A stretch of 64,000 nt of DNA from Octopus vulgaris (taxonomy: Eukaryota). Positions 2,846 to 61,266 of the stretch are shown here, piece after piece. The DNA lies in the NCBI GenBank assembly GCA_951406725.2, contig OX597814.1, forward strand, positions 34,658,001-34,722,000. The letters are read 5' to 3'. The position numbers and the translations under genes were made by a program. Below the pieces are notes generated by a model, which saw nothing but the letters and a program-made list of their open reading frames with translations, did not search any database and was not told the origin of the DNA. Each line of letters starts with the position of its first letter. The stretch's first letter is position 1.

Positions 2846-3589
2846 ATGCAAGTGTTTAAACGGAACATTAAGATGTGTGTCATAATGAGAATTATAGACA
2901 TAATTACTACAAATTAATATGATTAACGAAATAATATACTGAATGTTACGAGGAAACAAAGTTTCAATTGATGGTAAACATATGTAATTATTTCTCTATG
3001 AAGAGTTCGTTCAGTAAATAGTCTTTCTGAATTTATGAAATGGAAATCAAGAAAAAACGGAAAGAAAAAAATGAAATTATATGATTTTCTAGTCATAGAA
3101 AATTATATAATTCTTTGTTTTTTTTTCTTTTTCAAAAGCGTGAAATTGTTTCACTTTTACGTTTTTTTTTTTCACAGTCATATAATGATTTTCAGAGAAT
3201 CATATTTAAACGCCTTTATCACTCTTTGAATTAACTTTATAAAGAATGAGTAGGTTAGTAAGTAAAAAGATTCTATCAGAGGAATTTAGATGACATTACA
3301 GTAAAGTGCTACATTTTGCATATTTTCTTGCATATGTTTATTGCTCTGCTTACGGATTAAAATTTCGAAATAAAATACTAATTAATGTGTTTCTTTTGCT
3401 TGAAAATCTCAGAAAATTGGAACGAAAAAATGCATATACACGTATACATACATATATGTAAATGTATGAATCTGTCTGTCTGTCTGTCTCTTTATATATA
3501 TGTACACATATACACATACGATACGTGAACACACACATACATATATGCGTAATATATATATATATTCATATATACATATACATACATAC

Positions 3590-3712
3590 AAAATACCCCG
3601 TTGTTGATGATGAAATTCCAATGATCGATCCTTGGATCTAGGTTATAAACCGGCTCTTTCTCTATTGACAAGAAATCTTGAAATATAACTGAATAATGAC
3701 ATAGATACATAG
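3590..3712. repeat. ~120-bp dispersed repeat flanked by (TACA)n; second copy at 11975-12090
   Basis: Both copies share GAAATTCCAATGA..CCTTGGATCTAGGTTA..CCGGCTCTTT..AATCTTGAAAT..ACTGAATAATGACAT. Confidence 0.8.
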
Positions 3713-3739
3713 ATATACCCACAGATACAATCATACCAT

Positions 3740-3978
3740 CTAAGAGAAAAACAGCACCATGACGCAATTCCACAAAATTGGAAACGACATGCTGTACTGC
3801 TTGGCATTCGCTCCGGAAGCTCAAATACGAACATTTCAGAGTGCTTGGGTGTCAATCTGAGGACATGTATCGAGAGCAATGAATATCAAATATCCAGTCA
3901 ACATCATGGTGTTTGGAGTAACCACTAGTTATGGGGACGGTATGCCTCCATTTATCTTCCTACACGACCACACACTCA
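3740..3978 (+). mobile_element. Tc1/mariner (maT/DD37D-like) internally deleted transposon fragment
   Basis: Homologous to 30970-31210; encodes KYPVNIMVFGVTTSYGDGMPPFIF, the region after the first catalytic Asp. Confidence 0.75.
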
Positions 3979-4415
3979 AAAGATAACGAAACATCATATG
4001 TGATTATGTGGAAAATAATTGAGAAACCCATGCCTTATGTTAATGGATCGAATAAATGTAGGCTTTGTTTAGCCGAAAGATTGCAGATCTTGTTCATATG
4101 CCTAACTTTCTACTGAACTGTAGGTATGAAATTTTCAGCGATTGCAAGCATATGTATAAATATATTTTGAAGAGTTCCTGATGAACTCCTTTACCTTTTT
4201 TAATTTTCACTTTTTATATTTTAGCTTTTCTGATGTCGCTTCCCGTTTTTCGTTTTCTTTTTTATCTTCGCGTTTTCTATATGCTGCCTTCTCAGTTTTA
4301 GTTCGTTATGATATGTCTTTTGTGTCAGATGAATATATGTTTGAGATATTTCTCAACATATGAGACTACTAATAACACTTAAAGACATGTATTGTGTCCT
4401 TTAAATAAATAATAA
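3979..4415 (+). mobile_element. Penelope-like element 3' end: C-terminal GIY-YIG region plus tail with a decayed hammerhead motif
   Basis: Translation WKIIEKPMPYVNGSNKCRLCLAERLQIL...LLNCRYEIFSDCKHMYKY matches the CxLCLxE...LLNxRxE..SxCxH C-terminus of PLE endonucleases. CAGATGA-stem-GAGAC remnant at ~4326-4366. Confidence 0.7.
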
Positions 4416-11502: not shown

Positions 11503-12097
11503 GTATGTATGTTAACATATAACTGGAGATCAGTGAAAAAGGGAACACCTACGCTAAACTATTGAGAAATCTGCAGTTACTCTATACAGATTGCCAGTTC
11601 AGGTTTATACCTGTAGTTATTGGGGCTCTGGGATATGTAACACACTGCCTAAATGCCAATCTTTAGAATTTAGGCTTCTCAAACCCGGAAAAGAGAAAGA
11701 CTACATATCTAATCGATCACTAGAAATGTAAAAATCTGTAGAACTTTCCAGAAGTTTATCATTTAAATATATATGAGCATGTCTAGATATGCAACTATAT
11801 GCATAAAGCAAAACATACACATCTGCATACATACATACATACATACATACATACATACATACATACATACATACATACATACATACATAAATACATACAT
11901 ACATACATACATACATACACACATACATACATACATACATACATACATACATACATACATACATACATACATACAAAATATACTGTTTCTGATGTTGAAA
12001 TTCCAATGAAAGTTCCTTGGATCTAGGTTAGAATCCGGCTCTTTATTGGCAAGGAATCTTGAAATAAAACTGAATAATGACATGCATACAAACATAT

Positions 12098-15146: not shown

Positions 15147-15277
15147 ATTTATTATATAGAAGGAGCTTCTACAGGACTAGTACTGTTTCATTCAAGAGAA
15201 ATCTTCAGGAGCTTCCTGAAGATTTCTCTTGAATGAAACAGTACTAGTCCTGTAGAAGCTCCTTCTATATAATAAAT
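15147..15277. repeat. Palindrome with perfect 64-bp arms and a 3-nt centre (GCT)
   Basis: 15147-15210 is the reverse complement of 15214-15277. Confidence 0.95.
15207..15263 (+). ncRNA. Type I hammerhead ribozyme motif (C3-G8 core)
   Basis: AGGAGCTTC-CTGAAGA-tTTCtcttGAAt-GAAA-CAG-tactagtc-CTG-TA-GAAGCTCCT. Perfect 9-bp stem I, 4-bp stem III, GUA triplet with cut after 15254. Stem II is weak (U-U at 10.1/11.1). Confidence 0.7.
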
Positions 15278-18148: not shown

Positions 18149-18189
<41 letters not shown>

Positions 18190-18191
<2 letters not shown>

Positions 18192-18398
18192 CGGAGATGT
18201 ACATGCATAGCAAGTGACCTGATCTGAGATCCTGTGCCGGAACGAAAACAATTACAGCATGGAAGGTGTTTATAAGACATTTAAGAAGCACACAACATTT
18301 AAATTTAATTTGCCAAAATATTTTCGTCGCTTTGAGACCGCGATCTCTTCACTGACAAAATTCCGTGCTGCATCTGAGAAAGTAACAGTTAGTTCATG
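18190..18398 (-). mobile_element. ~210-bp (TA)n/(TATG)n-embedded repeat, copy 1, with diverged hammerhead motif at 18309-18359
   Basis: Homologous to 22781-23010; TTTGTCA-GTGAAGA-g-ATCGC..GCGAC-GAAA-atat-TT-TGGCAAA. Confidence 0.75.
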
Positions 18399-19014
18399 AT
18401 ATATATATATACGTATGTATGTATGTATGTATGTATGTATGTATGTATGTATGTATGTATGTATGTATGTATGTATGTATGTATGTTTGTATGCATGTAT
18501 GTATGTATGCATGTATGTATGTATGTATGTATGTATGTATGTATGTATGTATGTATGTATGTCTGTGTGTTTGTTTATGTATGTGTGTGTACATGTGCGT
18601 TTGCATGTGTGCATGCCTATACACATGTATGTATGTAAGCATGTACGTATGTACTTATGTATGTACGTGAGTATTTATTTGTGTAGACGTGTCTGTGTGT
18701 GGACATGTGTATGTACACGTGAACGTATGTTTATGTACTGGTATGTGTCTGTTCAAGTTGTTACTTTGCTGAAGGTAGTATACACATACATATACATGCA
18801 TATACATACATATGCATATACATATATATAGACACACATATATATGTGTGTGTGTGTGTGCGTTTGTGCCTCTCACCAACATCTAACGGTGAATGGATAC
18901 AACGTCTTAGATACATATATGCACATATAACGTTATTTATACATATATACAAGTACACACAATCATAAGGATACTTACACACACTCGCAGATATGCGTAT
19001 AATCTTAAAGAATA

Positions 19015-19190
19015 TAATCTTGACGCCACACCTAAGAACGAATTCAGTAAGGCATTCAAGAAAAGCCTGCACACAACTGGCCTTAAGATCAAAGTTGTAG
19101 AAAAGACAGGTAGGATTATCAAATCTGTATTATATAGATCATATCCATTTGATAGAATCACGTGTCAAAGTAACTGTGCAGTATGTTACT
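19015..19190 (+). mobile_element. Penelope-like element fragment, RT thumb/linker to zinc finger
   Basis: LDATPKNEFSKAFKKSLHTTGLKIKVVEKTGRIIKSVLYRSYPFDRITCQSNCAVC resembles the PLE linker (TP..EL...LKIKVVEK.G..LKS.L.RS.PF...C..C.VC). Confidence 0.65.
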
Positions 19191-19588: not shown

Positions 19589-19768
19589 GGAGAGAAAGAA
19601 GAATTAGAGAGAAAACGAAAGGGAGAGAGAGAGATAGAGAAACAATAAAGGATAGAGTCGCATCAAATATATTAATATATTTGATGCTTCTCTATCCTTT
19701 ATTGTTTCACACTCCCTTTCTCTCTTTCGTCTTCTCTCTGGTCCCTTCTCTAATTCTTTTTTCTCCTC
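19589..19768. repeat. Inverted repeat; core 70-bp palindrome at 19639-19708
   Basis: GAAACAATAAAGGATAGAGtcGCATCAAATATATT|AATATATTTGATGCttCTCTATCCTTTATTGTTTC. Confidence 0.9.
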
Positions 19769-21245: not shown

Positions 21246-21713
21246 TCTTCTGAAACAAAAACTACAAAATATATTGCAGAGTAATGTATTGCCATGTAAA
21301 AAAGTTATCAATGTAAAAGAAAATCCTTTATTTCTCTGAGGCGTATCAAAACGAGTAAAAGTAATTTATGGGGCGTAGAAATCCGCAGTCACTCATGTCT
21401 TTTATAATTCAGGAAAATTGTATTTTATGTCATTTTTGCCGTTTTTAGTTCGCACAAAAGTAACAGAAAGTCTAAAGTGCAAGTATTTCACAGACACAGA
21501 ACGGTTCGTGTGTTCTCAAGATTATTATATGTCCGCCTCACAATTTATATTACAAAATCATACCCATTACGATATATAGATGGACACGTCTAGGGAAGCT
21601 TTATTCTTTCTGTCCCTCCTTCTCTCTATGCTTTCTCCCTCCCTCCCTCACCTCTCTCTGTCTCTTTCGTTAACTCTCTCACTCTCTTTTTTTCTGTCAT
21701 ATGCAGATACACA

Positions 21714-22111
21714 TCTTTATATATAAAAGTAAGGTTGTGTGCTGTCTGTCTCCTACGATTTAGATTCCTAACTACTCCCACATTTTGCGGTGCAGTTTAA
21801 CCAAAACCGGGTATCTTATAGTCGTGATTCATATCGAGCCCTTCTGGGTATTAGCGCGCGTCTACGATGAGTCTACGATTTTAAAAATAATTTACCATAA
21901 ATTTTTCCCATTTTTAATGCAATTTTGGCATATATAAGGGAAGTAACTCTCTAAAAATTTATTATTAAATCTCAGAACGTAAAAAGCTACAGTAACACCC
22001 CTCCCCTTTGTGGTTAGCCATATTGAGATGGCTATTATACTTTACATCTCTAAAAATGCTTATATAGTTATTTCCCTTACAAACCCGAGCAACGCCGGGC
22101 GATACTGCTAG
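21714..22111 (+). mobile_element. Non-autonomous Helitron, ~400 bp
   Basis: Inserted between A and T; starts TC (TCTTTATATATAAAAG); 3' hairpin CCCGAGCAACGCCGGG followed by CTAG (22108-22111). Confidence 0.88.
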
Positions 22112-22564
22112 TATATAATACAGTTCTTTTTTCACATATACTATCTGTTTATGCTTCTGTGTATGGGTGCGGGATTGCGCATGTGTGTGCGTCGATGCAC
22201 GTATCTGTGAGTTTGTGTGTGCATATATACTTATATCTCCACATGCGTACATATTTATATGCTACTATATATATATACTTATATGCTAGTATATTACTAT
22301 ATTTGTAGGTATATGATAACATACATACAAGCATATGCATGAGACCGCTAATTCCGACACATTTGTTTCCTCTCTACGTTTCTTTTCACTCTCTTACCAG
22401 TTTACCCTCTAATCCATTTATGTTGCAGAACGTAGAGTCGAAACGTTAAAGGCTTTCCCATTCTTTCTGGGAGTCAAAATAATACACCTGTTTGTTGTTG
22501 CCCCGCTTGTCTTTGTCGTTTGCTTTCTGCACATTTGAACAATATGTGTGCTTATATATGTATG

Positions 22565-22700
<136 letters not shown>

Positions 22701-22780
22701 CAGGCGTATGTGCGTACATGCATACGTACATACATACACACATGTATGCATACATACACACATACATACGTACATATATA

Positions 22781-23010
22781 TGACGAACTAACTGTTACTT
22801 TCTTAGATGCAGCACGGACTTTGTCAGTGAACAGGTCGCGGATTTTAGCGACGAAAATATTTTGACAAATTAAACTTAAATGTTGAAGTGAATCGAACGG
22901 CTTTTGTGTGTTTCTTAAATGGCTTAGAAACACCTTCCACGCTGCAATTGTTTTCGTTTCAGCACACGATCTCAGATCAAATTACTTGCTATGCGAGTAC
23001 ATCTCCGTAA
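22781..23010 (+). mobile_element. ~210-230-bp repeat, copy 2, carrying a hammerhead motif
   Basis: Homologous to 18190-18398 on the minus strand. Confidence 0.75.
22820..22869 (+). ncRNA. Type I minimal hammerhead motif with G3-C8 core variant
   Basis: TTTGTCA-GTGAACA-g-GTCGC-ggatttta-GCGAC-GAAA-atat-TT-TGACAAA. Perfect 7-bp stem I, 5-bp stem II, palindromic AATATT stem III. Confidence 0.65.
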
Positions 23011-23077
23011 CATATATATATACATATACATATATATATATATGTGTATGTATATATATATATGTGTGTATATATAT

Positions 23078-23402
23078 AAAATTAGAAAAAAAAACACCTT
23101 TTATCAATTCAAAATTAACAATTAAATTACACCATCTAGAAAATTACGTATAATAGAAATGTTAAAATTAAAATACCAATAAAATGTCAATGATTAAGTA
23201 AATTGCAAAAAATAATAATAATAAATTCTACCTATTATATACGTTTTTTCAATATTATTGTGTTTTGAAATTTACTTAATCATTGACATTTTATTGGTAA
23301 ATTAAATTTAATATTTCTATTATACGTAATTTTCTAAATGGTGTAATTTAATGTTATTTAATTGTTCATTTTAAATTAATAAAAGGTGTTTTGTTCTAAT
23401 TT
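23078..23402. repeat. AT-rich foldback inverted repeat, ~135-bp imperfect arms
   Basis: Examples: AGAAAATTACGTATAATAGAAAT / ATTTCTATTATACGTAATTTTCT, and TACCAATAAAATGTCAATGATTAAGTAAATT with its reverse complement. Confidence 0.9.
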
Positions 23403-23496
23403 TTTAATATATATATTATATTTTGTGAAATTTGATATAGTATTTCTAAATTGAATTGTTTTCCTTGTAAGTTTGGATTTTTTATTCCCTCAAATA

Positions 23497-25466: not shown

Positions 25467-25649
25467 GCCTGTGTAAAATCGTTAGCGCGTCGTACAAAAT
25501 GCTTAGCAGCATTTCTTACCGCCTTAACTTTAGATTTCAAATACGACTGATGTCGACTTTACCTTTCACCCTTTCGAGATCGGTACAGAAAATACCAGTT
25601 CAACATTGATGTACCCGATTATACGCCCTCCTTTCAAATTGCTGGTCTG

Positions 25650-26310
25650 GATATTTTTCATGGTGATCTCTGACAACAATATACGGCCTATTGGCCTCAA
25701 TTTCTCTCTCTGTGTGTATTGGCATATCCCAGAGTATGGTTACTTTTTTATTTTCTGTGACCTTTTCTGGCGTGTGCCTATACCATCTTTTTTCTGTTGT
25801 TATTCCATAGTGTTGGCATAGTTTCCAGTGTATGTAGATCCCATCTCTATCATGTCTGTAAATATGTTCTTTCTTAGCCAGGACTGAGCAGCCAAGAGAA
25901 AATATGATTTTTTTTCTTCTCCATCTCCACATATTCTGCAATTACTTGTATTTCTATTCATTACATGTTTTTAGTAATTTCTGGGAGGAAGGCTTTGAAA
26001 TTGTGCTGCAATTAAAATCCTTCAGTCTCTCCTGTGAATCATGAGCTTCTCAGCCATTGTTGGGATTTTGCTTTGTCTATTTCTTTTCTGTTTAGTTTAA
26101 CCTAGTATTTGCCATGGAGGGGCTATTCTTGCAATCGTATTATCATGACCCATTGCTGTTCCCTGTTTTAGTTTGGATTTCAGTTCTTTTACAGCTTTTG
26201 CTGTGTCTTCTTTTACATTATAGTTGCTAGGTACTACGGATTCTTTTTTGTATTTGTCAGTTTCCTTAAAGACTGAAAACAGTCTTTTGGTTTGTTCGTG
26301 TTTTGTGGCT
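25650..26310 (-). mobile_element. R4/Dong-type LINE fragment (CCHC and restriction-like endonuclease)
   Basis: GCSVLAKKEHIYRHDRDGIYIHWKLCQHYGI..WYRHTPEKVTENKKVTILWDMPIHTEREIEANRPYIVVRD; abuts (TTA)n at 26318-26350. Confidence 0.85.
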
Positions 26311-30854: not shown

Positions 30855-31710
30855 ACGGGGTTTGATGAGTAAATTGCCACTATTTTATATTTTTATTTCG
30901 CGCAAGCGCATCGATTCTTTTTTATTTTGTCGGCTACAAAATATAGTAGGGTCAGTTGGGCACTATTAGTGAGGAAAACACCACCATGATGCAATCCACT
31001 CTGCCAGAAATTTTGAAATGACATGTACTACTTGCCATCGCGCCTAAACCTCCAATATGAAAATATCAGAGTTTGGGTGTCATTCTGGGACAGTGTATGT
31101 ACCGAGAGTGATAGAAATGAAACATCCAGTCAAAATCATGGTGTTTGGATTGATCATTAGTGATGGTGACGTAATGCCTCCATTTATCTTCCCACACGGC
31201 CCGACACTCAACACGGAGGCCTACATCAAGTGCCTGGAGGAGGTAGTGCTGCCCTGGGTCAAGATAGTGGCTGCTGGAGAAGACCCTATGCCTAGCAACA
31301 GTACTCTACACCATGCCACACAACCACAAGAGATCCCAGTCATGGCTGTCAGACAATTTCTGCGACCACATGACCCTTAACATCTAACTGCAACCCCTTG
31401 AATTCTACGTGTGGAGTGTAGTTGAGTGAGAGAGCAAAAAATCTCCTTGTACACCAAAGATGAACTGAAGGCAAGGATTATGACAGCATTCACCAACTTA
31501 AACAAGGAGACCGTCCAGAAGAGTTGTAGGAGATTGCAAAGTCACCTGAAGGCCGTGGTTGAAGCCATTGGCGATTTTATAGAATAAATTTACTCTTTAG
31601 TATTTCAATGTATTTTAACAAATATATTTTGGTAAATATATCTGTTAAAATATGTCAGGGTTATTTTCATTTTTACGTAACTTAGACGATAGTTTATTCA
31701 CAGCACCTTG
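30855..31710 (+). mobile_element. Tc1/mariner maT (DD37D)-like element, internally deleted, with degenerate TIRs
   Basis: KHPVKIMVFGLIISDGDVMPPFIFPHG..LNTEAYIKCLEEVVLPWV...CNPLEFYVWSVVE...TKDELKARIMTAFTNLNKETVQKSCRRLQSHLKAVVEAIGDFIE*. Ends CGGGGTTTGATGAGTAAA / TTTATTCACAGCACCTTG|TA. Confidence 0.88.
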
Positions 31711-32057: not shown

Positions 32058-32845
32058 CAATAAAAGGCTTCCAAATAAGGAAGCGTAGTGCTAGAACACA
32101 AAAAGGGATAAATTCATGAAAGGAATGAAGATTAAAAACATTTACCATCTCAGCTATATCCCAGACCGACGGTTTCTACCTATTTTTAGCAAACAAACAA
32201 AATATATTTGCCAAGGCCAGGTTCTTCAGTGGGATGCCTTCGTAATCCTAGATGCACTGACTGTTAGAAGCACATGTAGATCTAACTTTTCAAACCTCTG
32301 CGCAGACGCAAATCATACCCGGCGACAGAGAGGATGCCGGTAAAAAATTAGGTAACAGATGGTAATATTGATTACAAGGCCTTCCCAGATGAGTGACTGG
32401 TTATTCAAAGACATTTATAGATTGTAAATTTATTCTGTCCAGTTACATATCAGTATAGTGGTCATTTGCAAACTCCAACTTTCATTTCTCCTTAGCCCTC
32501 ACGTCACACAGCTGTTAATGTTTATTTCAGTTGGGTCACGCCCTTTCAGTTGCTATAGATTCGTAATGCATCTTACGGCTGTGCCTGTCACCTTGATGGT
32601 GAGGAACCCTACATTGGGAGTGGTAACGACTACGGTAGGGTAACTGACTGCTTATTGTGATCATTCGTCTTTTGGTTTCCTGTAGCTTTGCTCTCTTTTT
32701 ACAAACCCAGTGAACATATATTTCCTATTTCAAAGAAATTCAAACAAAAGATATAAGACCCAAGTTAAAAAGATTCTCAACAATCCAACTTCTCTGGTTG
32801 ATATTAAGATGCCCACCCCCAGCAGGGGCCTTAACTCTCACATTT

Positions 32846-33063
32846 TAAGCGTCTCTATACAGTGGCATCTTTAAAACTATGGGTTCAGATATCCTCTCTG
32901 AGCTTGGAAAGCACCAACAAGGAATTTCCCTGATACAGAGTGATTAATTATAGCAAATCACTATTGTTTATCCAAGACAGCTTTGATCATTTGGCAGACT
33001 TTTGGCCCGTATAACTTAGGTAATTACATAGCGTGAGGCAAGGGTAACAACTCAAATGTACCT
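32846..33063 (-). repeat. 218-bp inverted copy of 34325-34542
   Basis: Near-identical; one mismatch seen. Confidence 0.95.
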
Positions 33064-33196
33064 CCTTTAGAAGCCCATTGCTTGTTGATTTATGCTTTCA
33101 TGCGGTTCTGCAAATGATATTGTCTCAACTCAAGTGCTCTTATTGCGCTTCATTGCAGATGCTTTTAGTAGTAGTATTTTAATTGATTAATTTTTT
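33062..33196 (+). repeat. 135-bp direct copy of 39606-39740
   Basis: Near-identical; one mismatch seen. Confidence 0.95.
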
Positions 33197-33640: not shown

Positions 33641-33795
33641 AAACAATTATTTGTTTAGCTTAAATAGTTGATTTCGCTTAGTAAACTTATGCTCTAATGT
33701 TTATTGATATAAGTGTAAACTTTTGTTTTTCAGTTTTCTGCAATCGATTCCATGTGCACACTTTAATTGAAGACACAAGGAATATTACTTTTTAA
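33641..33795 (+). repeat. ~155-bp direct duplicate of 35246-35402
   Basis: Near-identical with a few substitutions. Confidence 0.95.
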
Positions 33796-33862
33796 AAAAT
33801 CTTACATAACAAATATATAAACGTATATATATATATATAGTTACCCTTATTTTATAAGTTAT

Positions 33863-34022: not shown

Positions 34023-36089
34023 AATGGGGGAGAGAGAGAGATTATGACTAATTCTTTGCTAAGAGGCGTTTCATAGTTAATCCGTAGCTGTCAATTAGCT
34101 TTCTAACAAATATCACATTTTCCCACCTTTGAATGAAAATTCAACTTTCTTTGAAATGAATTCTTAATTTTTTCGAAGTTATTTTCTCTTTTCTTAGGTA
34201 GTTTATAATAATTCATGCTAATTCTTGGTTTTAATACTAAAAGCAAATTTAATTTCAATATGTATTTTTCAGCACGCAACTCATAGCACCCACTTTCTGT
34301 TGGAATTATAGAAATTCTTGTTGTAGGTACATTTGAGTTGTTACCCTTGCCTCACGCTATGTAATTACCTAAGTTATACGGGCCAAAAGTCTGCCAAATG
34401 ATCAAAGCTGTCTTCGATAAACAATAGTGATTTGCTATAATTAATCACTCTGTATCAGGGAAATTCCTTGTTGGTGCTTTCCAAGCTCAGAGAGGATATC
34501 TGAACCCATAGTTTTAAAGATGCCACTGTATAGAGACGCTTACAATGGATTGTGATGTTCAGGTATCTAATAATTTTGAATGGTTCCAAAAGTAAGAGCT
34601 ATTAGTTTCAAAAGTTGCCCAATATTTCTGATTCCACTTTAAGAGATATCGCAGTGACGCAAGATCTGAAATTTTTGATTATTCCATGCCGCATTAAATT
34701 ATAGCTTGGCTCTATTACTAGTGTTCCACCTTATTAAATTCACGCCATTTCTAGGTTTCTGAATTTCCAGACGAAATGTTTTATATTAGAGCATTGAATT
34801 TTAAAAAAAAAAAGTGTTTGCTGTCCGCTACATAATTCCTTTCAATGTTGTCTAGATATGCTATGGTTGCTTGGTGTACGACATTTTTAGAGGCAGAGAT
34901 TTATGTACAGGTATATGACGGGATAGATGATGGACGGCCATAATCTGCCATCTTTCATTCAACAATACAAAAGCTAGTGCCCATATCAAGGAAATACACA
35001 ATATACTACCCTATCTTGAATTTAAAACTAAACTCTTTCTAAGGATTTGTAGCTTAGTATGGATCTATCACTCCAAAATTTGCTCAGGTTAATTCTCGCT
35101 CGGTTTATCTTATACTTTTGATCTTATGGGTGTCTCAGTTATGGTAATATCGTTTGCACACGTAAACATTGACTCTCCTAAATCAGTCAAGATGTCATCC
35201 ACATACAGTAACAATACTAACGGTTACGCAAGTAAAAAAAGAAACAAACAATTATTTGTTTAGCTTAAATAGTTGATTTCGCTTAGTAAACTTATGTTCT
35301 AATGTTTATTGATACAAGTGTAAACTTTTGTTTTTTCAGTTTTCTGCAATCGATTCCATGTGCACACTTTAATTGAAGTCACAAGGAATATTACTTTTTT
35401 AATATCCGGAAAAAATATCCCGTAATTTTCGGAGTGAGTAAATTGGATTTGACATTCATTTATTTCCACAAGTCTTTAGGGAAATGATTGAAGACGACCT
35501 GAAGTATTACTGAAAACTCATTACACAACCATCGGATAAGAGAGATAATAAAATTTTGTTAAGGTTTATTATTCAGCGTAGCAAGATGCTCGATGCGAGG
35601 AGGCAGCTCCGCTTGTTTTATTATTAGTTCCAGCAATTTTATGCAATTTATCTACGCCAATAAAGCCCTGGATGAAAACATTACAGCTGAGTCATCTATT
35701 TAGGCTGTATAGTGAAGGGTCACTGAGCATTCGTAAAATCAAAAGCAAAACAAATCCCTTTGTTCTTTATTGCTTACTGTTTCATTTTTGTATTACACGC
35801 AGTCATTAGTCCGCGGTTATTCTGAGACACAACCATATAAAAGTTTCAGTCGATCATGTCTATTTCATGCTTATTTCAACTCAGTATTTTTTGAATGACT
35901 AAGTTAAGTTTTTTATTTATAAGAATGCACTTATAGGCAGCATTTTACAGCGATTTACACACATACACGCGAACATAAACACACACACGTACACACACAT
36001 AAACACACACATATATATATACATACACGCGCATATATATACATATATATTGATACATCTATACATATTTGTGTACAGATGTATGCATT

Positions 36090-37899: not shown

Positions 37900-39930
37900 G
37901 AAATTCAACTTAGATTAACTTAGATGTGTTCAGGCCAAAATTGGACCAGGCCATGTATAACTTAATAGTACTACCTGATCGAAATGGTAAACCATTAAGT
38001 CGTGTTCTTTGGCATCATACCAATTCAAGTAGATATTTGTTGGTGACTGAAATGCAGCCAAGTATTAATGGCTTCTTTTGTATCCCTTAAAGAAAATTGT
38101 CCAGAAATCGTTTGGACATAACAGAATATTTTCCTTCTTTGATTTGTTATGGGATAAAACTAGACTGAGTAGGGCTTGTAGAGGAAAAGTAACTGTGTTG
38201 CAGTATATTTATGTGTTGTGCGCCTGATTTGTGTAACGGACAAATGGAAAAGTTCTCAGACTTGGATGAATTTTAAACTTGATGTTAAGGTAGTTTCGTG
38301 TCATATTCTCCAAATTGTGAAAATGTTATAACAGTCACGGCAGCGTTGGGGATGAGAGTGTTTCAATCTTTGAATGTGGTCCCAATAGTCAAGATCAGTC
38401 ATGCCATATAGTTTTCTTTTCTATAATTGTTCTCTAGTGTGCCTCAATTCTCATAATGTTTTGTTTTAGAATGAGGAGTCCACAAGTGACAATAGTATTA
38501 TTAGTGTGACCGTACAAAGGAGAGGAACACAAGGATGACACAAGGAAAGTTCTGAGGATCTATGAGCTGATTGTGAGATCCATGTTAACTTTATTGATGA
38601 TGTGAGCACTCCAGATGAGGCTGTCTTCAACAATTACTTCAAAGTCTCAAATAGTTTTGGATGCCATGAGTGTTTCCAAATTAAATGAGTTTAAATTTTC
38701 CCTCATTTAATGACATGCTGTTTTTACCAGCACGTTGACATCAGCATGTTGATCAGACTAGAATTTTGTTCGGTCTTTTCCACTGGCAAGCTTTTGAAAA
38801 TTGGTGTCTGTTTATATTGATTATAAAGGGAAGTGAGACACACAATCACTTGAAGAACATCACTGGTGACTTTCGCTGAGCTTAAGTGGATTCCATTGAT
38901 CATACCATGTTGGGTTCTGTTACCTACGAAATACTTGATACCGTGCTGTAATTTTCCACGGATTCCGATGTCGGATAATATTACAGGATATTGTGGGTGA
39001 CATTGTTGAAGGATTTGTTGAAGTCAAGATATACAACAACAAAGTTCGAGCCCTTCCCAAAACTTAAGGATGTCATTAAAGTTGTGTAGAAGAAATGTTA
39101 GGTTGTGTTTGATGCAACGAAAGCTATGTTGGTTGGAAGTTCAGAGATTGTTGCATGCCAGAAATCAGTTATTCTTCATCTCATAATCAGAGTGAGATTT
39201 GGTGATAGTTAATACTGTGTAACGTGTTTCCTTTTTCGAAAACTGTGATGACAAAATAGTATTAAAATATTTGGCTATGCAACCTGAGTCTAAAAACTTT
39301 TTACAAAGTCATCAGAACACTTGCAATGAATCAATCAAAGTCTGTTGCAGAATAATGATTGGCTTTGTTTAATGCTACAATGATGTCTGACGAGGTGAAA
39401 GTTATTTCGGAGATGATATATTGGGGGATAATTTCATTGAAATAGCCTAAGTTAACCACAGTGGGAAGACAGAGCGATATTGTCTCAGCATGACCTCCGT
39501 CATTTCTTCAGCATCCTGTGAGAGAATGTTATCTATCAGCGTTCCTATGTTTGTTGACAAACGAACAGAACAATTTCAGTTATGTTTGATTATTCAATAA
39601 CAAATCTCCTTTAGAAGCCCATTGCTTGTTGATTTATGCTTTCATGCGGTTCTGCAAATGATATTGTCTCAACTCAAGTGCTCTTATTGCGCTTCATTGC
39701 GGATGCTTTTAGTAGTAGTATTTTAATTGATTAATTTTTTTTATGGAGTCTTTTGACATTCTGATAAGTGTTTTGTTGTCTCTTGGGAGCCTACTTTCGT
39801 TTGTGTTTATGAGTGTTGTTGGAGCAGTGTTATGAACATGTATTAGTGACAGTGTACTCAAATCACTGCCAAGTTGTTCAAATATCAAACAAAGTGTGAA
39901 TGAATTATCATTCGTCATTCTACTTCGTAA
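37900..39930 (-). mobile_element. Decayed CR1-type LINE ORF2 (RT and C-terminus)
   Basis: Minus strand: NQHSFRCIKHNLTFLLHNFNDILK..GSNFVVVYLDFNKSF at ~39150-39005, and RKLYGMTDLDYWDHIQRLKHSHPQRCRDCYNIFTIWRI at ~38420-38305. Confidence 0.8.
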
Positions 39931-49025: not shown

Positions 49026-49137
<112 letters not shown>

Positions 49138-49186
49138 TAAATAATAATAATAATAATGATAATAATAATAATAATAATAATAATAA

Positions 49187-49262
<76 letters not shown>

Positions 49263-49270
49263 TTAATAAA

Positions 49271-49823
49271 TGCTCTGATGCAGTACCAGGCAATGGCTTT
49301 CATGGCTGCTGATCTTAACTGATTGGAAGTGTTGTCATGTACATTGTTTTGTCTTGGTATAAAAGATTGGCTACTGCAAATATTCTGCTCAATACCACCG
49401 ATTTGCTTGTCAGTTGTTTGACCATAACCAGTTGAGCATGCTCCATAGTGCTGACAATATGTGCATCTCTGATCACAAGCAGAAGTAGTGGGGAAGCATC
49501 ATAACCGTGTCTTGAAAGGAATGCTTGGAGGTTAGGATAATTCACCTTTGGAACCATGGGTGGTTCGTTCAACATCCTTAAACAACCCGTATTCAGGGAC
49601 CTTTTGAACGGGATGGGCTACCAACTAGAAGAGAATTCTAACTGGGCCCCACATGCAAGGTCATGAGCTGTTTATCTTGATATGAGATCACCATGTCGCG
49701 CTCATATGGTTGTGATGCATGTGCCTGGTGCACCCTTATCAGACGGGTAGTCATGATGGGTATATTGGGCTTCGTATATTTTACCCCAGTGTCACTTTGA
49801 TGGCATGCACTACTCTCTCACTC
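49271..49823. mobile_element. Full copy of the ~555-bp (TAA)n-inserted element
   Basis: Colinear with 54269-54824; (TAA)n on both sides. Confidence 0.92.
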
Positions 49824-49824
49824 C

Positions 49825-49915
<91 letters not shown>

Positions 49916-50018
49916 CAACAACAACAACAACAATAAGAAGAACAACAACAATAATAAAAACAACAACAACAACAACAATAATAATAATAATAATAATAAT
50001 AATCTTATTATTATTATT

Positions 50019-51016
50019 GCCTTTGCACAGCTTCTAACGCTGTTTACTACCAGTGAACTAATGTAAAACCCCTTATTTTTCGAGCACCTTCAGGAGTATT
50101 CGAGCGTTTCCAAGCAGTACTGTTTACTGCAAATTCTCCACCCTTATTGCAGCCCCTATTTGTTCCACGTACTTCTCGAGATTTGTGCTCACTGTTCCCA
50201 GGGCTCCGACAATTATTGGTACTACTGCTACCGTTTTTATCGACCACAACTGTTTAACTTCCCAATCTAACCTGTCATATCTCTCAACTTTTCTTTCTTC
50301 CTTATCGCATACATTGTTGTCAACTGGGCATGCTATATTTATGATCTAGCATAGTTTGCTTTCCTTTTCAAGATTATGTCTGGCTTCCTATTCTCTATCT
50401 CAAGGTCACACTAAATCGTAAAATCTCTCAGGATCTTTGTATTATCATTTTCTATAATACCTTCGAATTTATGGTCGTACGAATGTTTTGCTCTGTCAAG
50501 TCCATACTTGTTGCAAAGTGTCTAATGCACAAGCCTTGCTATATTGTCGTGGCGTTTCATATACTCCTTCTGGGCTAGTGGCGTACATGGCTGGTAATAT
50601 GCCATACCGTTTCATCATTTTGTCCACAAATTCTGCATTTATCACCTGATGTGTTGTCTATTCTTTATTTTATGTAATTTGTTCTTATTGCTTGCCTTTG
50701 GGCAGCACAGATTAGAGCCCCCGTTTCCGGTTTTAAATCACTTTTAGTCATCCACAGCCAACTTCTTTTCTCTGTCTGTGTTATCTTCGACATCCCTATG
50801 AAATTGACCATAAATTCTTTTCTTTACCCACCTATTTTCAGTTTCATTCGTTTTCAATTGCTTGTACAGTGCTTTGTGTTTGAAATCTTTCATCCTACAC
50901 AAGCCGAACCCTCTTACTTCTAATAATTGCGGTTCTGTAGCATTTTTTACATACCATACTATATTGTATTCTTCTGCTCTAATGCTGTGTTCGCATTCAA
51001 TAATCTTCCTCCTCTC

Positions 51017-54032: not shown

Positions 54033-54084
54033 AATAATAATAATAATAATAATGATGATGATGAGGAGGATGATAATGATGATA

Positions 54085-54125
<41 letters not shown>

Positions 54126-54159
54126 AATGATGATGATGATAATATTAATAATAATGATG

Positions 54160-54202
<43 letters not shown>

Positions 54203-54206
54203 TAAC

Positions 54207-54268
<62 letters not shown>

Positions 54269-55313
54269 GTGCCCTGATGCAGTACCAGGCAGTGGCTCTC
54301 ATGGCTTCTGATCTTAACTGATTGGAAGTGTTATCATGTACATTGTTTTGTCTTGGTATAAAAGATGGGCTACAGCAAATATTCTGCTCAATACCACAGA
54401 TTTGCTTGTCAGTTGTTTGACTTTAACCAGTTGAGCATGTCCCTTAGTGGCTGACGATATGTGCATCTCTGATCATGAGCAGAAGTAGTGGGGGAGCATC
54501 ATAGCCATGTGTTGAGAGGGATTCTTTGGGGTTTGAATAATTCACCTCTGGAAACATGGGTGGTTCTTTCAACATCCTTAAACAACCCTTATTCAGGGAC
54601 CTTTTGAGTGGGATGGGCTACTCAACCTGAAGAAAATTCTAATTGGGCCCCACCTGCAAGGTCATGTGCTGTTTATCTTGATATGAGATCACCATGTCGC
54701 GCACATATGGTTGTGATGCATGTGCCTGGTGTACCTTTATCAGACGGGTAGTCATGATGGGTATATTGGGCTTCGTATATTTTACCCCAGTGTCACTTTG
54801 ATGGCATGAACTGCTCTCTCACTCAATAATAATAATAATAATAATAATAAAAGATGGGCTACAGCAAATATTCTGCTCAATACCACAGATTTGCTTGTCA
54901 GTTGTTTGACCGTAACCAGTTGAGCATGTCCCTTAGTGGCTGACGATATGTGCATCTCTGATCACGAGCAGAAGTAGTGGGGGAGCATCATAGCCATGTG
55001 TTGAGAGGAATTGTTTGGGGTTTGAATAGTTCACCTCTGGAAACATGGGTGGTTCTTTCAACATCCTTAAACAACCCTTATTCAGGGACCGTTTGAGCGG
55101 GATGGGCTACTCAACCTGAAGAAAATTCTAATTGGGCCCCACCTGCAAGGTCATGTGCTGTTTATTTTGATATGAGATCACCATGTCGCGCACATATGGT
55201 TGTGATGCGAGTGCCTGGTGTACCTTTATCAGACGGGTAGTCATGATGGGTATATTGGGCTTCGTATATTTTACCCCAGTGTCACTTTGATGGCATGAAC
55301 TGCTCTCTCACTC
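54269..55313. mobile_element. Tandem pair of the ~555-bp element: full copy 54269-54824 and left-truncated copy 54848-55313
   Basis: Near-identical copies separated by a short (TAA)n. Confidence 0.95.
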
Positions 55314-55330
55314 AATAATAATAATAATAA

Positions 55331-56102
55331 TTGTAGTCTTACTAGTGATTTAAAACCGGAAACGGAGATTCTAATCAGTGCTACCCAAGAGCAAACTATA
55401 ACAACAAACTACATAAAATACAGAATAGACAACACAGCAGAAAGTGATAAGGGCAGAATCTGTGGACAAAACGGTGAAACCGTATAGCATACTATCAGGC
55501 AATGTACGTCACTATCCCAGAAGGAATATAAGAGACACCACGACTATATAGCCAGGCTTGTCCATTGGCACTCTGCAACAAGTATGACCTTGATAGAGGA
55601 AAAAATTGGTACGACAGCAAACCTGGAGGCATCGTCGAAAATAGAAATGCAAAGATCCTATGGGATTTTATGATATAGTGCGACTATGAGATAAAGAATA
55701 GCAAGCCAGACATAGTCTTAATTGAGAAAGAAAACAAACTATGCTGGATCATAGATACAGCATGCCCAGCTGACAACAATGTATGCCATAAGGAAGAAAG
55801 AAAAGTTGAGAGATATGACAGGTTAGATTGGGAGGTTAAGCAGTTGTGGTCGATGAAAACGATAGCAGTAGTACCAATAATTGTTGGAGTCCTGGGACTG
55901 GGAACAGTGAGCAAAAATCTCGAGAAGTACGTGGAACAAATAGGGGCTGCAATAAGGGTGGAGGACTTGCAGAAAACGGCACTGCTTGTAACTGCTTGTA
56001 TACTCCGGAAGGTGCTCGAAAAATAAGGGTGTTACCTTAGTTCACTGGTAGTAAATAGCTGACACTGTAGTACATCTCCAGCGTTAGAAACTGTGCAAAG
56101 GC
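55331..56102 (+). mobile_element. 5'-truncated R4/Dong-type LINE (CCHC, restriction-like endonuclease, 3' UTR)
   Basis: DLKPETEILISATQEQ..RICGQNGETV*H..C..YKRHHD..KILWDF..KPDIVLIEKENKLCWIIDTACPAD..EERKVERY..LQKTALL..LRKVLEK*, then (AAT)n. Confidence 0.92.
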
Positions 56103-56172
<70 letters not shown>

Positions 56173-60907: not shown

Positions 60908-61266
60908 ACTAGCCAATGAAAAATGCGGACGCATCCTGACAATATTCTTAACAATTAAACCTGGAAAAATAGGGGACATGAAAAACTCATTAAAATTAGA
61001 GCTTAAAATATTACTGCTAAAATTTAAATTTAAAATTTTTTATTAATTCATGTATTACAAAAAGCAAAATAAAAAGAAAAAAGAAAAATTGAAATAAATT
61101 GAATTTTTAAAAAAGTATGAAAAGTACCCAAGAGGTACTTTTTAATTTGAATTTTAGCAGCAATATTTTAAGCTCTAATTTTAATGAGTATTTTTTTTTT
61201 CTTGTCCACTAATTTTCCAGGTTTAATTGTTAAAAATATTGTTAGTCCGCATTTTCATTGGCTAGT
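60908..61266. repeat. Foldback inverted repeat, ~128-bp arms (MITE-like)
   Basis: ACTAGCCAATGAAAA.TGCGGAC / GTCCGCATTTTCATTGGCTAGT; ACTCATTAAAATTAGAGCTTAAAATATT with its reverse complement. Confidence 0.9.

What the first reader, a model, noticed from the sequence alone, without database searches (positions are those of the whole stretch)
22820..22869. Hammerhead motif with inverted G3-C8 core (GUGAACA)
Seen: perfect 7-bp stem I directly abutting GTGAACA, one extra G, a 5-bp stem II, GAAA, palindromic AATATT stem III and a UUU triplet. The sister copy (18309-18359, minus) keeps G3, has a G-U wobble in stem I and a different stem II loop, but has G8. G3 is therefore a family trait; whether C8 is too remains open. 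To my knowledge G3-C8 is known mainly from engineered rescue mutants and is rare in nature.
Basis: partly seen in the sequence, partly recalled or inferred. Interest (0 to 1): 0.75.

Follow-up and report, generated by a model that had tools for sequence, protein, structure and literature searches.

The report
Swapped-core hammerhead in animal repeat
An abundant short jumping-gene remnant in this animal genome carries a small self-cutting RNA motif (a hammerhead ribozyme) in which two paired core letters have traded places across the family, a swap so far described from laboratory mutants, although cutting has not been shown.

Summary
The motif at 22820-22869 is real. It is a type I minimal hammerhead with stem I of 7 bp, stem II of 5 bp, a palindromic stem III, U17, and a G3-C8 core instead of C3-G8. 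It sits in a ~226-bp repeat flanked by TA-rich microsatellites. Contigs of four public runs (three organism labels; 16,409, 7,143, 4,478 and 1,317 laid) show no alternative letter at 2% or more at position 3 or 8, and unaligned loose ends also read GUGAACA. So C8 is the family state among copies that align, and the sister copy's G8 is private decay. Only 7-21% of peak depth reaches the core, so unseen subfamilies are possible. The anatomy matches hammerheads of Penelope-like elements. A decayed Penelope-type ORF scrap lies 3.6 kb upstream, but no link to it is shown. G3-C8 appears in none of 90 published PLE hammerhead rows that I read, and it did not exceed chance in two phage scans. Earlier unchecked notes of this scan report other isolated cases. 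Most likely this is a weak, dimer- or protein-assisted ribozyme whose 3-8 pair was reversed under selection. Verdict: new variant of a known kind; cleavage untested.

The parts
22785..23010 (+). Dispersed high-copy non-coding repeat (~226 bp), probably the 3'-terminal (pLTR-type) segment of a Penelope-like element or a non-autonomous derivative
   Evidence: 80% identical second copy with the same two ends; thousands of contigs laid, with AT-rich unrelated flanks after 23010 in 79/75/60/4 contigs; no hit to a PLE protein profile
22820..22826 (+). Stem I, 5' arm
   Evidence: pairs with 22863-22869; pair probabilities 0.70-1.0 in the 230-nt context and 0.49-0.62 in a 101-nt context
22827..22833 (+). 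Core strand G3 U4 G5 A6 A7 C8 A9 (inverted 3-8 pair)
   Evidence: sequence; no other letter at >=2% in 4 of 4 runs, and loose-end consensuses agree
22834..22834 (+). Extra nucleotide between A9 and G10.1
   Evidence: sequence; a conserved trait of PLE minimal hammerheads (PMC4209133)
22835..22852 (+). Stem II (5 bp, opens with G10.1-C11.1) and loop II; this copy's loop differs from the family form
   Evidence: pair probabilities 0.98-1.0; loop variants and the loose end at 22847
22853..22862 (+). G12 A13 A14 A15.1, palindromic stem III (22856-22861) and U17; predicted cut between 22862 and 22863
   Evidence: sequence; palindrome check; site by hammerhead numbering, not observed
22863..22869 (+). 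Stem I, 3' arm; A>G at 22865 in 7-12% of depth keeps pairing as U-G
   Evidence: table 3
18189..18395 (-). Sister copy: G3 kept, G8, G10.1 lost, 21-nt gap; decayed
   Evidence: does not fold as a hammerhead
22554..22780 (.). (TA)n/(TACA)n microsatellite on the 5' side; (TA)n also follows 23010
   Evidence: sequence; the same at both ends of the sister
19010..19190 (+). Isolated scrap of a Penelope-type ORF (RT-to-GIY-YIG linker with a C..C..C motif); belonging to the same element is NOT shown
   Evidence: 70 phmmer hits; long hits carry RT and GIY-YIG; profile hit E 3e-23 here and nowhere else in the window

Best explanation
The repeat is the retro-copied 3' end of a Penelope-like element (PLE), or of a short element that borrows PLE enzymes, inserted into TA-rich microsatellites. 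It carries the usual PLE minimal type I hammerhead, except that the source element had reversed the tertiary C3-G8 pair to G3-C8 before it amplified. Shown: the anatomy, the family-wide G3 and C8 among aligning copies, the dispersal and the flanks. Inferred: (1) G3 pairs with C8 in the active fold; (2) stem III is too weak in one molecule, so two motifs pair through their palindromes, as two pLTRs of a tandem transcript would, probably helped by the element's protein; (3) the cut falls after U22862 and is slow; (4) the swap could cross its inactive single-mutant step because PLE copying does not need cleavage in vitro. Single dispersed copies like this one are probably silent passengers.
For: All other core letters are canonical and the stems are beyond chance. 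G3 and C8 have no variant row in 4 of 4 runs. Loose ends, which are not aligned and so not filtered at these letters, read GUGAACA at 22847 in X1/X5/X8 (93/58/59 contigs) and at 22822 in X8/X10 (10/3 contigs, agreement 0.95/0.97). Two transversions landing on the two partners of one pair, and restoring it, would be a coincidence of about 1 in 150 if two of ~11 core letters changed at random (my arithmetic: 1/55 x 3/9). The extra nucleotide, G10.1-C11.1, the palindrome and the AU-rich flanks match the published PLE consensus. In an Anolis PLE hammerhead, C3G or G8C alone abolish cleavage, the double mutant partly restores it, cleavage needs the PLE protein, and catalytic mutants still insert (PMC11167929). 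(TA)n is the recorded target of several PLE clades. A PLE ORF scrap exists in this genome.
Against: No cleavage data. No ORF was found attached to the repeat. Summed depth at the core is only 7-21% of peak depth, so most family sequence was not seen there. Detection of variants near the core is probably dampened: CpG sites at 22837-22840 show no row, while most downstream CpG sites show 2-11% in X1. I saw no two-sided compensatory change in any stem and no C3-G8 relative, so covariation is not shown within the family. The minimum-energy fold pairs G3 with U17 and extends stem I, which competes with G3-C8. The stem III duplex is only -0.2 kcal/mol, and cofolding two copies did not give the dimeric hammerhead. 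No excess of copies beginning at 22863 and no head-to-tail joint is among the rows shown. No Rfam hammerhead model scores, even at E<=10.
Confidence: 0.62

Rival explanations
1. Dead relic: the source element's hammerhead lost activity, G3 and C8 arose by drift, and both hitch-hiked to high copy number because retrotransposition does not need the ribozyme.
For: Catalytic mutants do not impair PLE insertion in vitro, and no reads began at the cut site in Anolis. Naiad PLEs thrive without canonical hammerheads. G3 can extend stem I by pairing with U17. Uniformity across copies reflects one source, not selection on copies. There is no footprint of cleavage at 22863.
Against: Only the two partners of one pair changed, and complementarily, while U4, G5, A6, A9, G12-A15.1, U16.1 and both stems stayed intact. 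The same swap partly rescues in a PLE hammerhead.
Confidence: 0.18
2. The vehicle is not a PLE tail but a retrozyme-like unit or a SINE, for example a ~230-nt RNA circle released from tandem arrays, of which these copies are solo monomers.
For: Both window copies share the same 5' and 3' ends within a few bases. The size fits animal retrozyme monomers of 150-450 bp (PMC7229834). The repeat has no coding homology.
Against: No joint from 23010 back to the start among 15 of 24 joints shown; 3' flanks are unrelated AT-rich DNA; depth falls off toward the 5' end, as with 5'-truncated retro-copies. No tRNA gene. A B-box-like word on the minus strand at 22889-22899 covers 22895, where ~45-61% of depth reads another letter. 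The stem III type is the PLE minimal one. Animal retrozymes are themselves proposed to be PLE derivatives, so this rival overlaps the main reading.
Confidence: 0.12
3. The fold, including the 3-8 pair, is kept as a protein-binding or RT-positioning structure in the element RNA and does not cut at a useful rate.
For: PLE minimal hammerheads cleave poorly in vitro, and the authors leave other functions open. Unprocessed RNA is the main insertion substrate.
Against: The 3-8 pair is described as a feature of the catalytically active conformation (PMC3884650), and all catalytic letters are kept.
Confidence: 0.08

Closest known systems
Minimal/dimeric type I hammerheads in pLTRs of metazoan Penelope-like elements (Cervera and de la Pena 2014, PMC4209133)
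   Same: Type I topology, extra nucleotide after A9, G10.1-C11.1, tiny palindromic stem III, frequent U17, AU-rich flanks, mostly solo dispersed copies in large families.
   Different: Core is G3-C8. Of 56 alignment rows read, 53 are C3-G8, 2 U3-A8, 1 U3-G8 and 0 G3 (their search pattern fixed the core). Stem I is longer (7 bp against 2-7, mostly 3-5). No PLE ORF is shown attached.
Natural U3-A8 core covariants (Perreault et al. 2011, PMC3088659; S. mansoni Cercyon PLE, PMC4209133)
   Same: A compensated change of the 3-8 pair, in one case fixed in a family of ~1,300 PLE-related copies.
   Different: U3-A8 keeps the pyrimidine-purine order and can be reached through a U3-G8 wobble; G3-C8 reverses the order and needs a mismatched step (inference).
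Engineered C3G/G8C double mutant (e.g. Anolis Poseidon hammerhead, Frangieh et al. 2024, PMC11167929; Kalweit and Hammann 2013, PMC3884650)
   Same: The same two letters at positions 3 and 8.
   Different: Here it is the natural family state, with U17. In Kalweit and Hammann a G3-C8 variant was more active with G17 than with C17 (data not shown there), so position 17 matters.
Hydra, Neptune and Naiad clades of PLEs that insert into (TA)n (Craig et al. 2021, PMC8557442)
   Same: Microsatellite target; hammerhead near the 3' end (Hydra clade).
   Different: All 34 hammerhead rows of their File S2 are C3-G8 with longer stem III. A 17-nt motif of this repeat was not found in their supplement, and the 3' ends of their Octopus Naiads do not resemble it by eye.
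Animal non-LTR retrozymes (PMC7229834; preprint 10.64898/2026.07.22.740005)
   Same: Non-coding, 150-450 bp, type I hammerhead, proposed PLE dependence.
   Different: Retrozymes are tandem and carry canonical tertiary-stabilised hammerheads; here the copies seen are solo and the motif is of the minimal type.

Membership tests
Type I hammerhead ribozyme | Stems I and II around the core, in type I order | tested here: met
Type I hammerhead ribozyme | U4 G5 A6, A9, G12 A13 A14, A15.1-U16.1, H17 | tested here: met
   sequence; family variants only at the CpG touching G12 (1-3.5%)
Type I hammerhead ribozyme | Literal C3 and G8 of the CUGANGA consensus | tested here: not met
   G3 and C8 in the copy and in the family
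Type I hammerhead ribozyme | Watson-Crick compatibility of positions 3 and 8 | tested here: met
   G-C; whether the pair forms is inferred
Type I hammerhead ribozyme | Match to an Rfam hammerhead model | tested here: not met
   0 hits at gathering score; 3 unrelated chance hits at E<=10; I did not test whether canonical PLE minimal hammerheads score any better
Type I hammerhead ribozyme | Self-cleavage after H17 | not testable with these tools
   needs an assay; contigs cannot show RNA ends
Type I hammerhead ribozyme | Stems supported by covariation | tested here: inconclusive
   one pairing-neutral wobble at 7-12%; no two-sided change seen; per-copy sequences not available
PLE minimal (dimeric) hammerhead | Extra nucleotide between 9 and 10.1; G10.1-C11.1; palindromic 15.2-16.2 region | tested here: met
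   against PMC4209133
PLE minimal (dimeric) hammerhead | Activity as a dimer | not testable with these tools
   cofolding gave no dimeric hammerhead; duplex -0.2 kcal/mol; such models omit tertiary contacts and protein
Penelope-like element | RT plus GIY-YIG ORF joined to the repeat | tested here: inconclusive
   no ORF adjacent to either copy; an isolated scrap at 19010-19190; no genome held
Penelope-like element | Common 3' end, variable 5' extent, AT-rich/(TA)n target | tested here: inconclusive
   common 3' end at 23010 and TA flanks met; 5' depth decline seen, but partly technical, and the two window copies share their 5' end
Non-LTR retrozyme | Head-to-tail tandem units | tested here: not met
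   both window copies are solo; no end-to-start joint among 15 of 24 joints shown
tRNA-derived SINE | tRNA-like head with A and B boxes | tested here: not met
   ARAGORN 0 genes; the B-box-like word is not conserved in the family

The most novel reading that the evidence does not exclude
This is an active hammerhead family of hundreds to many thousands of copies, shared by several related animal species, in which the 3-8 pair was reversed by natural selection, with U17 tolerated because C17 would lock G3. Such swapped cores are invisible to CUGANGA-based searches, so some PLE lineages now listed as lacking hammerheads may carry them.
Probability: 0.35. Interest if true: 0.7.

Novelty: new variant of a known kind. 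Interest (0 to 1): 0.52.

Why it matters
The C3-G8 pair is among the most conserved features of the best-studied ribozyme, and its reversal is a classic laboratory rescue experiment. A whole natural family fixed for G3-C8 would show that evolution can cross the inactive single-mutant step, plausibly because PLE copying tolerates a dead ribozyme for a while. It would also show that the pair was still worth restoring, which bears on the open question of whether PLE hammerheads do anything. It gives a ready wild-type/revertant test pair and says that hammerhead search patterns should allow any Watson-Crick 3-8 pair.

Tried and rejected
No whole genome is held, so copies could not be collected one by one. 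Family pattern in JGI metagenomes and IMG/VR: 36 + 1 matches, all judged chance; none aligns to the repeat beyond the pattern. Rfam: nothing relevant (one search showed 150 of 177 rows, none a hammerhead). RNA: no RNA holder listed. X10 is only guessed to be RNA, and contigs show no strand or ends, so it says nothing on expression or cleavage. 'U17 is a co-adaptation to G3' is downgraded to 'permissive', because U17 is in 24 of 56 canonical PLE rows, although only 1 of 107 folding phage hammerheads had it. 'The two copies are the inverted ends of one PLE insertion' was considered: they point outward and a PLE scrap lies between them. It is not supported, because they are 20% diverged, each has its own microsatellite flanks, and no other PLE coding remnant lies between. 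'The core is constrained by an overlapping reading frame' was rejected for lack of homology: the sister has an open frame through the motif, but there is no start codon and no profile hit. An alternative register with C3 fails U4/G5/A6. The Naiad and Hydra consensus sequences of PMC8557442 do not match (2 of 59 parts read, and a line break could hide the motif). Word-index protein search for the ORF scrap found nothing, nor did Pfam. The sources of the homologous proteins remain unknown. A sequence look-up in earlier findings returned nothing. The host looks like an octopod cephalopod to me from its microsatellites and SINEs; this is recalled and untested.

Full report
Observation. In hammerhead numbering, stem I is 22820-22826 with 22863-22869, G3 is 22827, C8 22832, A9 22833, an extra G 22834, stem II 22835-22839 with 22848-22852, G12 to A15.1 22853-22856, U16.1 22861 and U17 22862. 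The six bases 22856-22861 are their own reverse complement. The 50-mer folds into stems I and II with z = -3.40, and 1 of 200 shuffles folded as well. A descriptor with free letters at 3 and 8 found three hits in the window at loose settings; only this one has long stems and a complementary 3-8 pair. In 40 block-wise dinucleotide shuffles of the window, hits with stems of at least 7 and 5 bp occurred 0.025 times per window, and never with a Watson-Crick 3-8 pair. Rfam does not see the motif: 0 hits at gathering score in the window and three unrelated chance hits at E up to 10 on the repeat.

The sister copy. BLAST and nhmmer find one other copy, 18395-18189 on the minus strand, 80% identical, with a 21-nt gap. 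It has G3, G8, the stem I wobble and a different loop II. It also has A where G10.1 should be, and it does not fold as a hammerhead. Both copies start and end within a few bases of the same points and lie in (TA)n/(TACA)n tracts.

The family. No genome is held. A run search listed 24 runs, 20 holding half or more of the words, in 11 studies and four organism labels. I laid 4 of the 24 (X1 and X10 organism A, X5 C, X8 D; none marked as a possible source) at 80% likeness, listing differences from 2%. 16,409, 7,143, 4,478 and 1,317 contigs were laid on 237 bases, so this is a high-copy repeat. The tool warns that summed depth is no copy number. My rough bounds for copies at the core in X1 are several hundred to about 20,000. 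The table of other letters has 36 rows and none at 22827 or 22832. In the motif it lists only loop II variants, CpG-type changes at 22849, 22850, 22852 and 22853 (up to 5.8% in X1), and A>G at 22865 (11.9, 9.2, 7.4 and 8.4%), which keeps stem I paired as U-G.

Independent of the alignment, the loose ends before 22847 (93, 58 and 59 contigs in X1, X5 and X8) have a consensus containing GUGAACA followed by stem II and a sister-like loop. Their median length is 13-16 letters, so about half reach C8 and fewer reach G3. Loose ends behind 22822 (10 contigs in X8, 3 in X10; agreement 0.95 and 0.97) read the same. So G3-C8 is the family state among copies that show the core, and the sister's G8 is a private change.

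Limits of that test. Summed depth in the core bin is 21, 11, 7 and 7% of each run's peak. Part of the loss is technical, because this copy differs from the family at 22819 and in loop II. Part looks like real 5' truncation, since depth 16-40 bases from the 5' edge is several-fold below that at the same distance from the 3' end. A diverged subfamily with a canonical core could hide in the unaligned majority. CpG sites at 22837-22840 show no row while most downstream ones show 2-11% in X1, which suggests that variants near the core are under-reported. Only 24 of 714 loose-end rows and 15 of 24 joints were shown. Among them there is no pile of copies starting at 22863 and no joint from the 3' end to the 5' start. 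The 3' end at 23010 is followed by unrelated AT-rich DNA in 79, 75, 60 and 4 contigs.

What carries it. The motif matches the minimal hammerheads of Penelope-like elements: extra nucleotide after A9, G10.1-C11.1, palindromic stem III, solo dispersed copies (PMC4209133, parts 1-2 of 4 read). (TA)n is the recorded target of Naiad and Hydra PLEs (PMC8557442, passages and supplement parts). At 19010-19190 on the plus strand lies a short frame that found 70 proteins at E up to 0.001. Of ten longer hits scanned, two matched RVT_1 and two GIY-YIG below Pfam's cut-offs, and the full-length ones show RT, a C..C..C linker and GIY-YIG. A profile from 68 of these proteins hits only that scrap in the window (E 3e-23) and not the repeat. 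A PLE with a C-terminal endonuclease therefore existed in this genome, but its tie to the repeat is not shown. Tandem retrozyme and tRNA-SINE readings failed their tests.

How it most likely works. In the active hammerhead, positions 3 and 8 form a Watson-Crick pair (PMC3884650, passages). In the hammerhead of an Anolis PLE, C3G and G8C each abolish cleavage, the double mutant partly restores it, cleavage needs the element's protein, and catalytic mutants still insert (PMC11167929, parts 1-2 of 4). I infer that the source element reversed the pair, surviving the dead intermediate because copying did not depend on cutting, and that the second change was favoured because it restored function. 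If two of about 11 core letters had changed at random, hitting both partners and restoring the pair has a chance near 1 in 150 (my arithmetic). Stem III cannot form well in one molecule (closing it costs 5.4 kcal/mol in the model), so activity would need two motifs paired through their palindromes, as in a tandem PLE transcript (review PMC6765202, passages).

Against this: the palindrome duplex is only -0.2 kcal/mol, cofolding did not return the dimer, and the minimum-energy fold pairs G3 with U17, which parallels the inhibitory C3-G17 pair. A G3-C8 variant is reported as more active with G17 than with C17 (data not shown in that paper), so U17 should suit G3 better than C17 would. But U17 is common in this class (24 of 56 rows by my count), so it is no sign of co-adaptation.

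How rare. In the alignment of PMC4209133 (supplement parts 1-2 of 3), 53 of 56 rows are C3-G8, two U3-A8, one U3-G8 and none G3. All 34 rows of File S2 of PMC8557442 are C3-G8. Both sets came from patterns that largely fix the core. Perreault et al. name U3-A8 as the natural covariant (section 8 and passages; their figures S6-S7 were not seen). In IMG/VR, with one stem II start and position 3 and 8 free, 104 of 111 distinct sampled matches were C3-G8 and 96 folded fully (120 loci of about 1,200). G3-C8 gave 6 matches in the whole collection, 0 folding; the mismatch controls gave 0 of 9 and 1 of 13. With a second stem II start, 107 of 128 C3-G8 folded (of about 1,400), against 1 of 93 G3-C8, where a flank-swapped null gave 3.7. 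These scans cover two geometries and types I and III only.

Earlier notes of this scan report G3-C8 motifs in several phages and behind PLE-type RT genes. They are unchecked, and my scans neither found nor excluded them. They move my reading from 'possibly unique' to 'rare and recurrent'.

In print. Searches gave no paper describing a natural G3-C8 family. Most results were seen as listings only. I also read passages of PMC10085705 and PMC7229834, part 1 of 3 and passages of PMC13282606 (its supplement was listed but not read), and part 1 of 5 and passages of preprint 10.64898/2026.07.22.740005 (supplements closed). Lunse et al. on PLE hammerhead variants and Nelson and Uhlenbeck 2008 are not held, and I saw nothing of them. 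Przybilski and Hammann 2007 is known to me only as cited. The first could already list such variants.

Verdict. It works like a PLE minimal hammerhead and fails only the literal C3/G8 letters and the Rfam models. Cleavage and attachment to a PLE are unproven. New variant of a known kind; interest 0.52.

Noticed in passing
window 19010-19190 (+): Isolated ~180-bp scrap of a Penelope-type ORF (RT-to-endonuclease linker) between microsatellites; best hits 59-67% identical.
   Followed up: partly
window 22814-22818 and 23005-23009: In the 230-nt fold, five bases just upstream of stem I pair with the last bases of the repeat, closing the RNA from end to end; both segments are identical in the sister. 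Could be chance.
   Followed up: no
window 49034-50742, 54033-56142, 25600-25941: Several related pieces beside (TAA)n tracts with frames that look to me like the endonuclease end of an R4/Dong-type LINE (recalled; Pfam gave no relevant hit).
   Followed up: partly
window 31048-31380 (+), 3744-3979: Frame resembling a Tc1/mariner transposase fragment (recalled; Pfam no hit), with a second partial copy.
   Followed up: partly
window 3493-3716 and 11880-12097: Another ~220-bp repeat pair (80% identical) between microsatellites, built like the focal repeat but with no hammerhead found by my descriptor.
   Followed up: partly
window 22340-22545 (+): A ~200-bp segment just upstream of the focal copy's microsatellite contains a GAAAC-GU word after a weak hairpin; may be a decayed hammerhead-bearing repeat of another family.
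   Followed up: no
window 15147-15277, 19606-19739, 23069-23415, 60908-61266, 2500-2815: Long inverted repeats (68-98% arm identity), possibly MITE-like or fold-back elements.
   Followed up: no
window 32841-33063 / 34325-34547, 33062-33196 / 39606-39740, 33641-33796 / 35246-35402: Near-identical (97-99%) short duplications, one inverted; recent rearrangement or an assembly feature.
   Followed up: no
window 21710-22110: Repeat-like segment ending in CTAG with a preceding hairpin, reminiscent of a Helitron end (recalled).
   Followed up: no
L161 and L162: Two phage matches with G3-C8, a good stem II and GAAAC but no stem I abutting the core; failed my fold test.
   Followed up: partly
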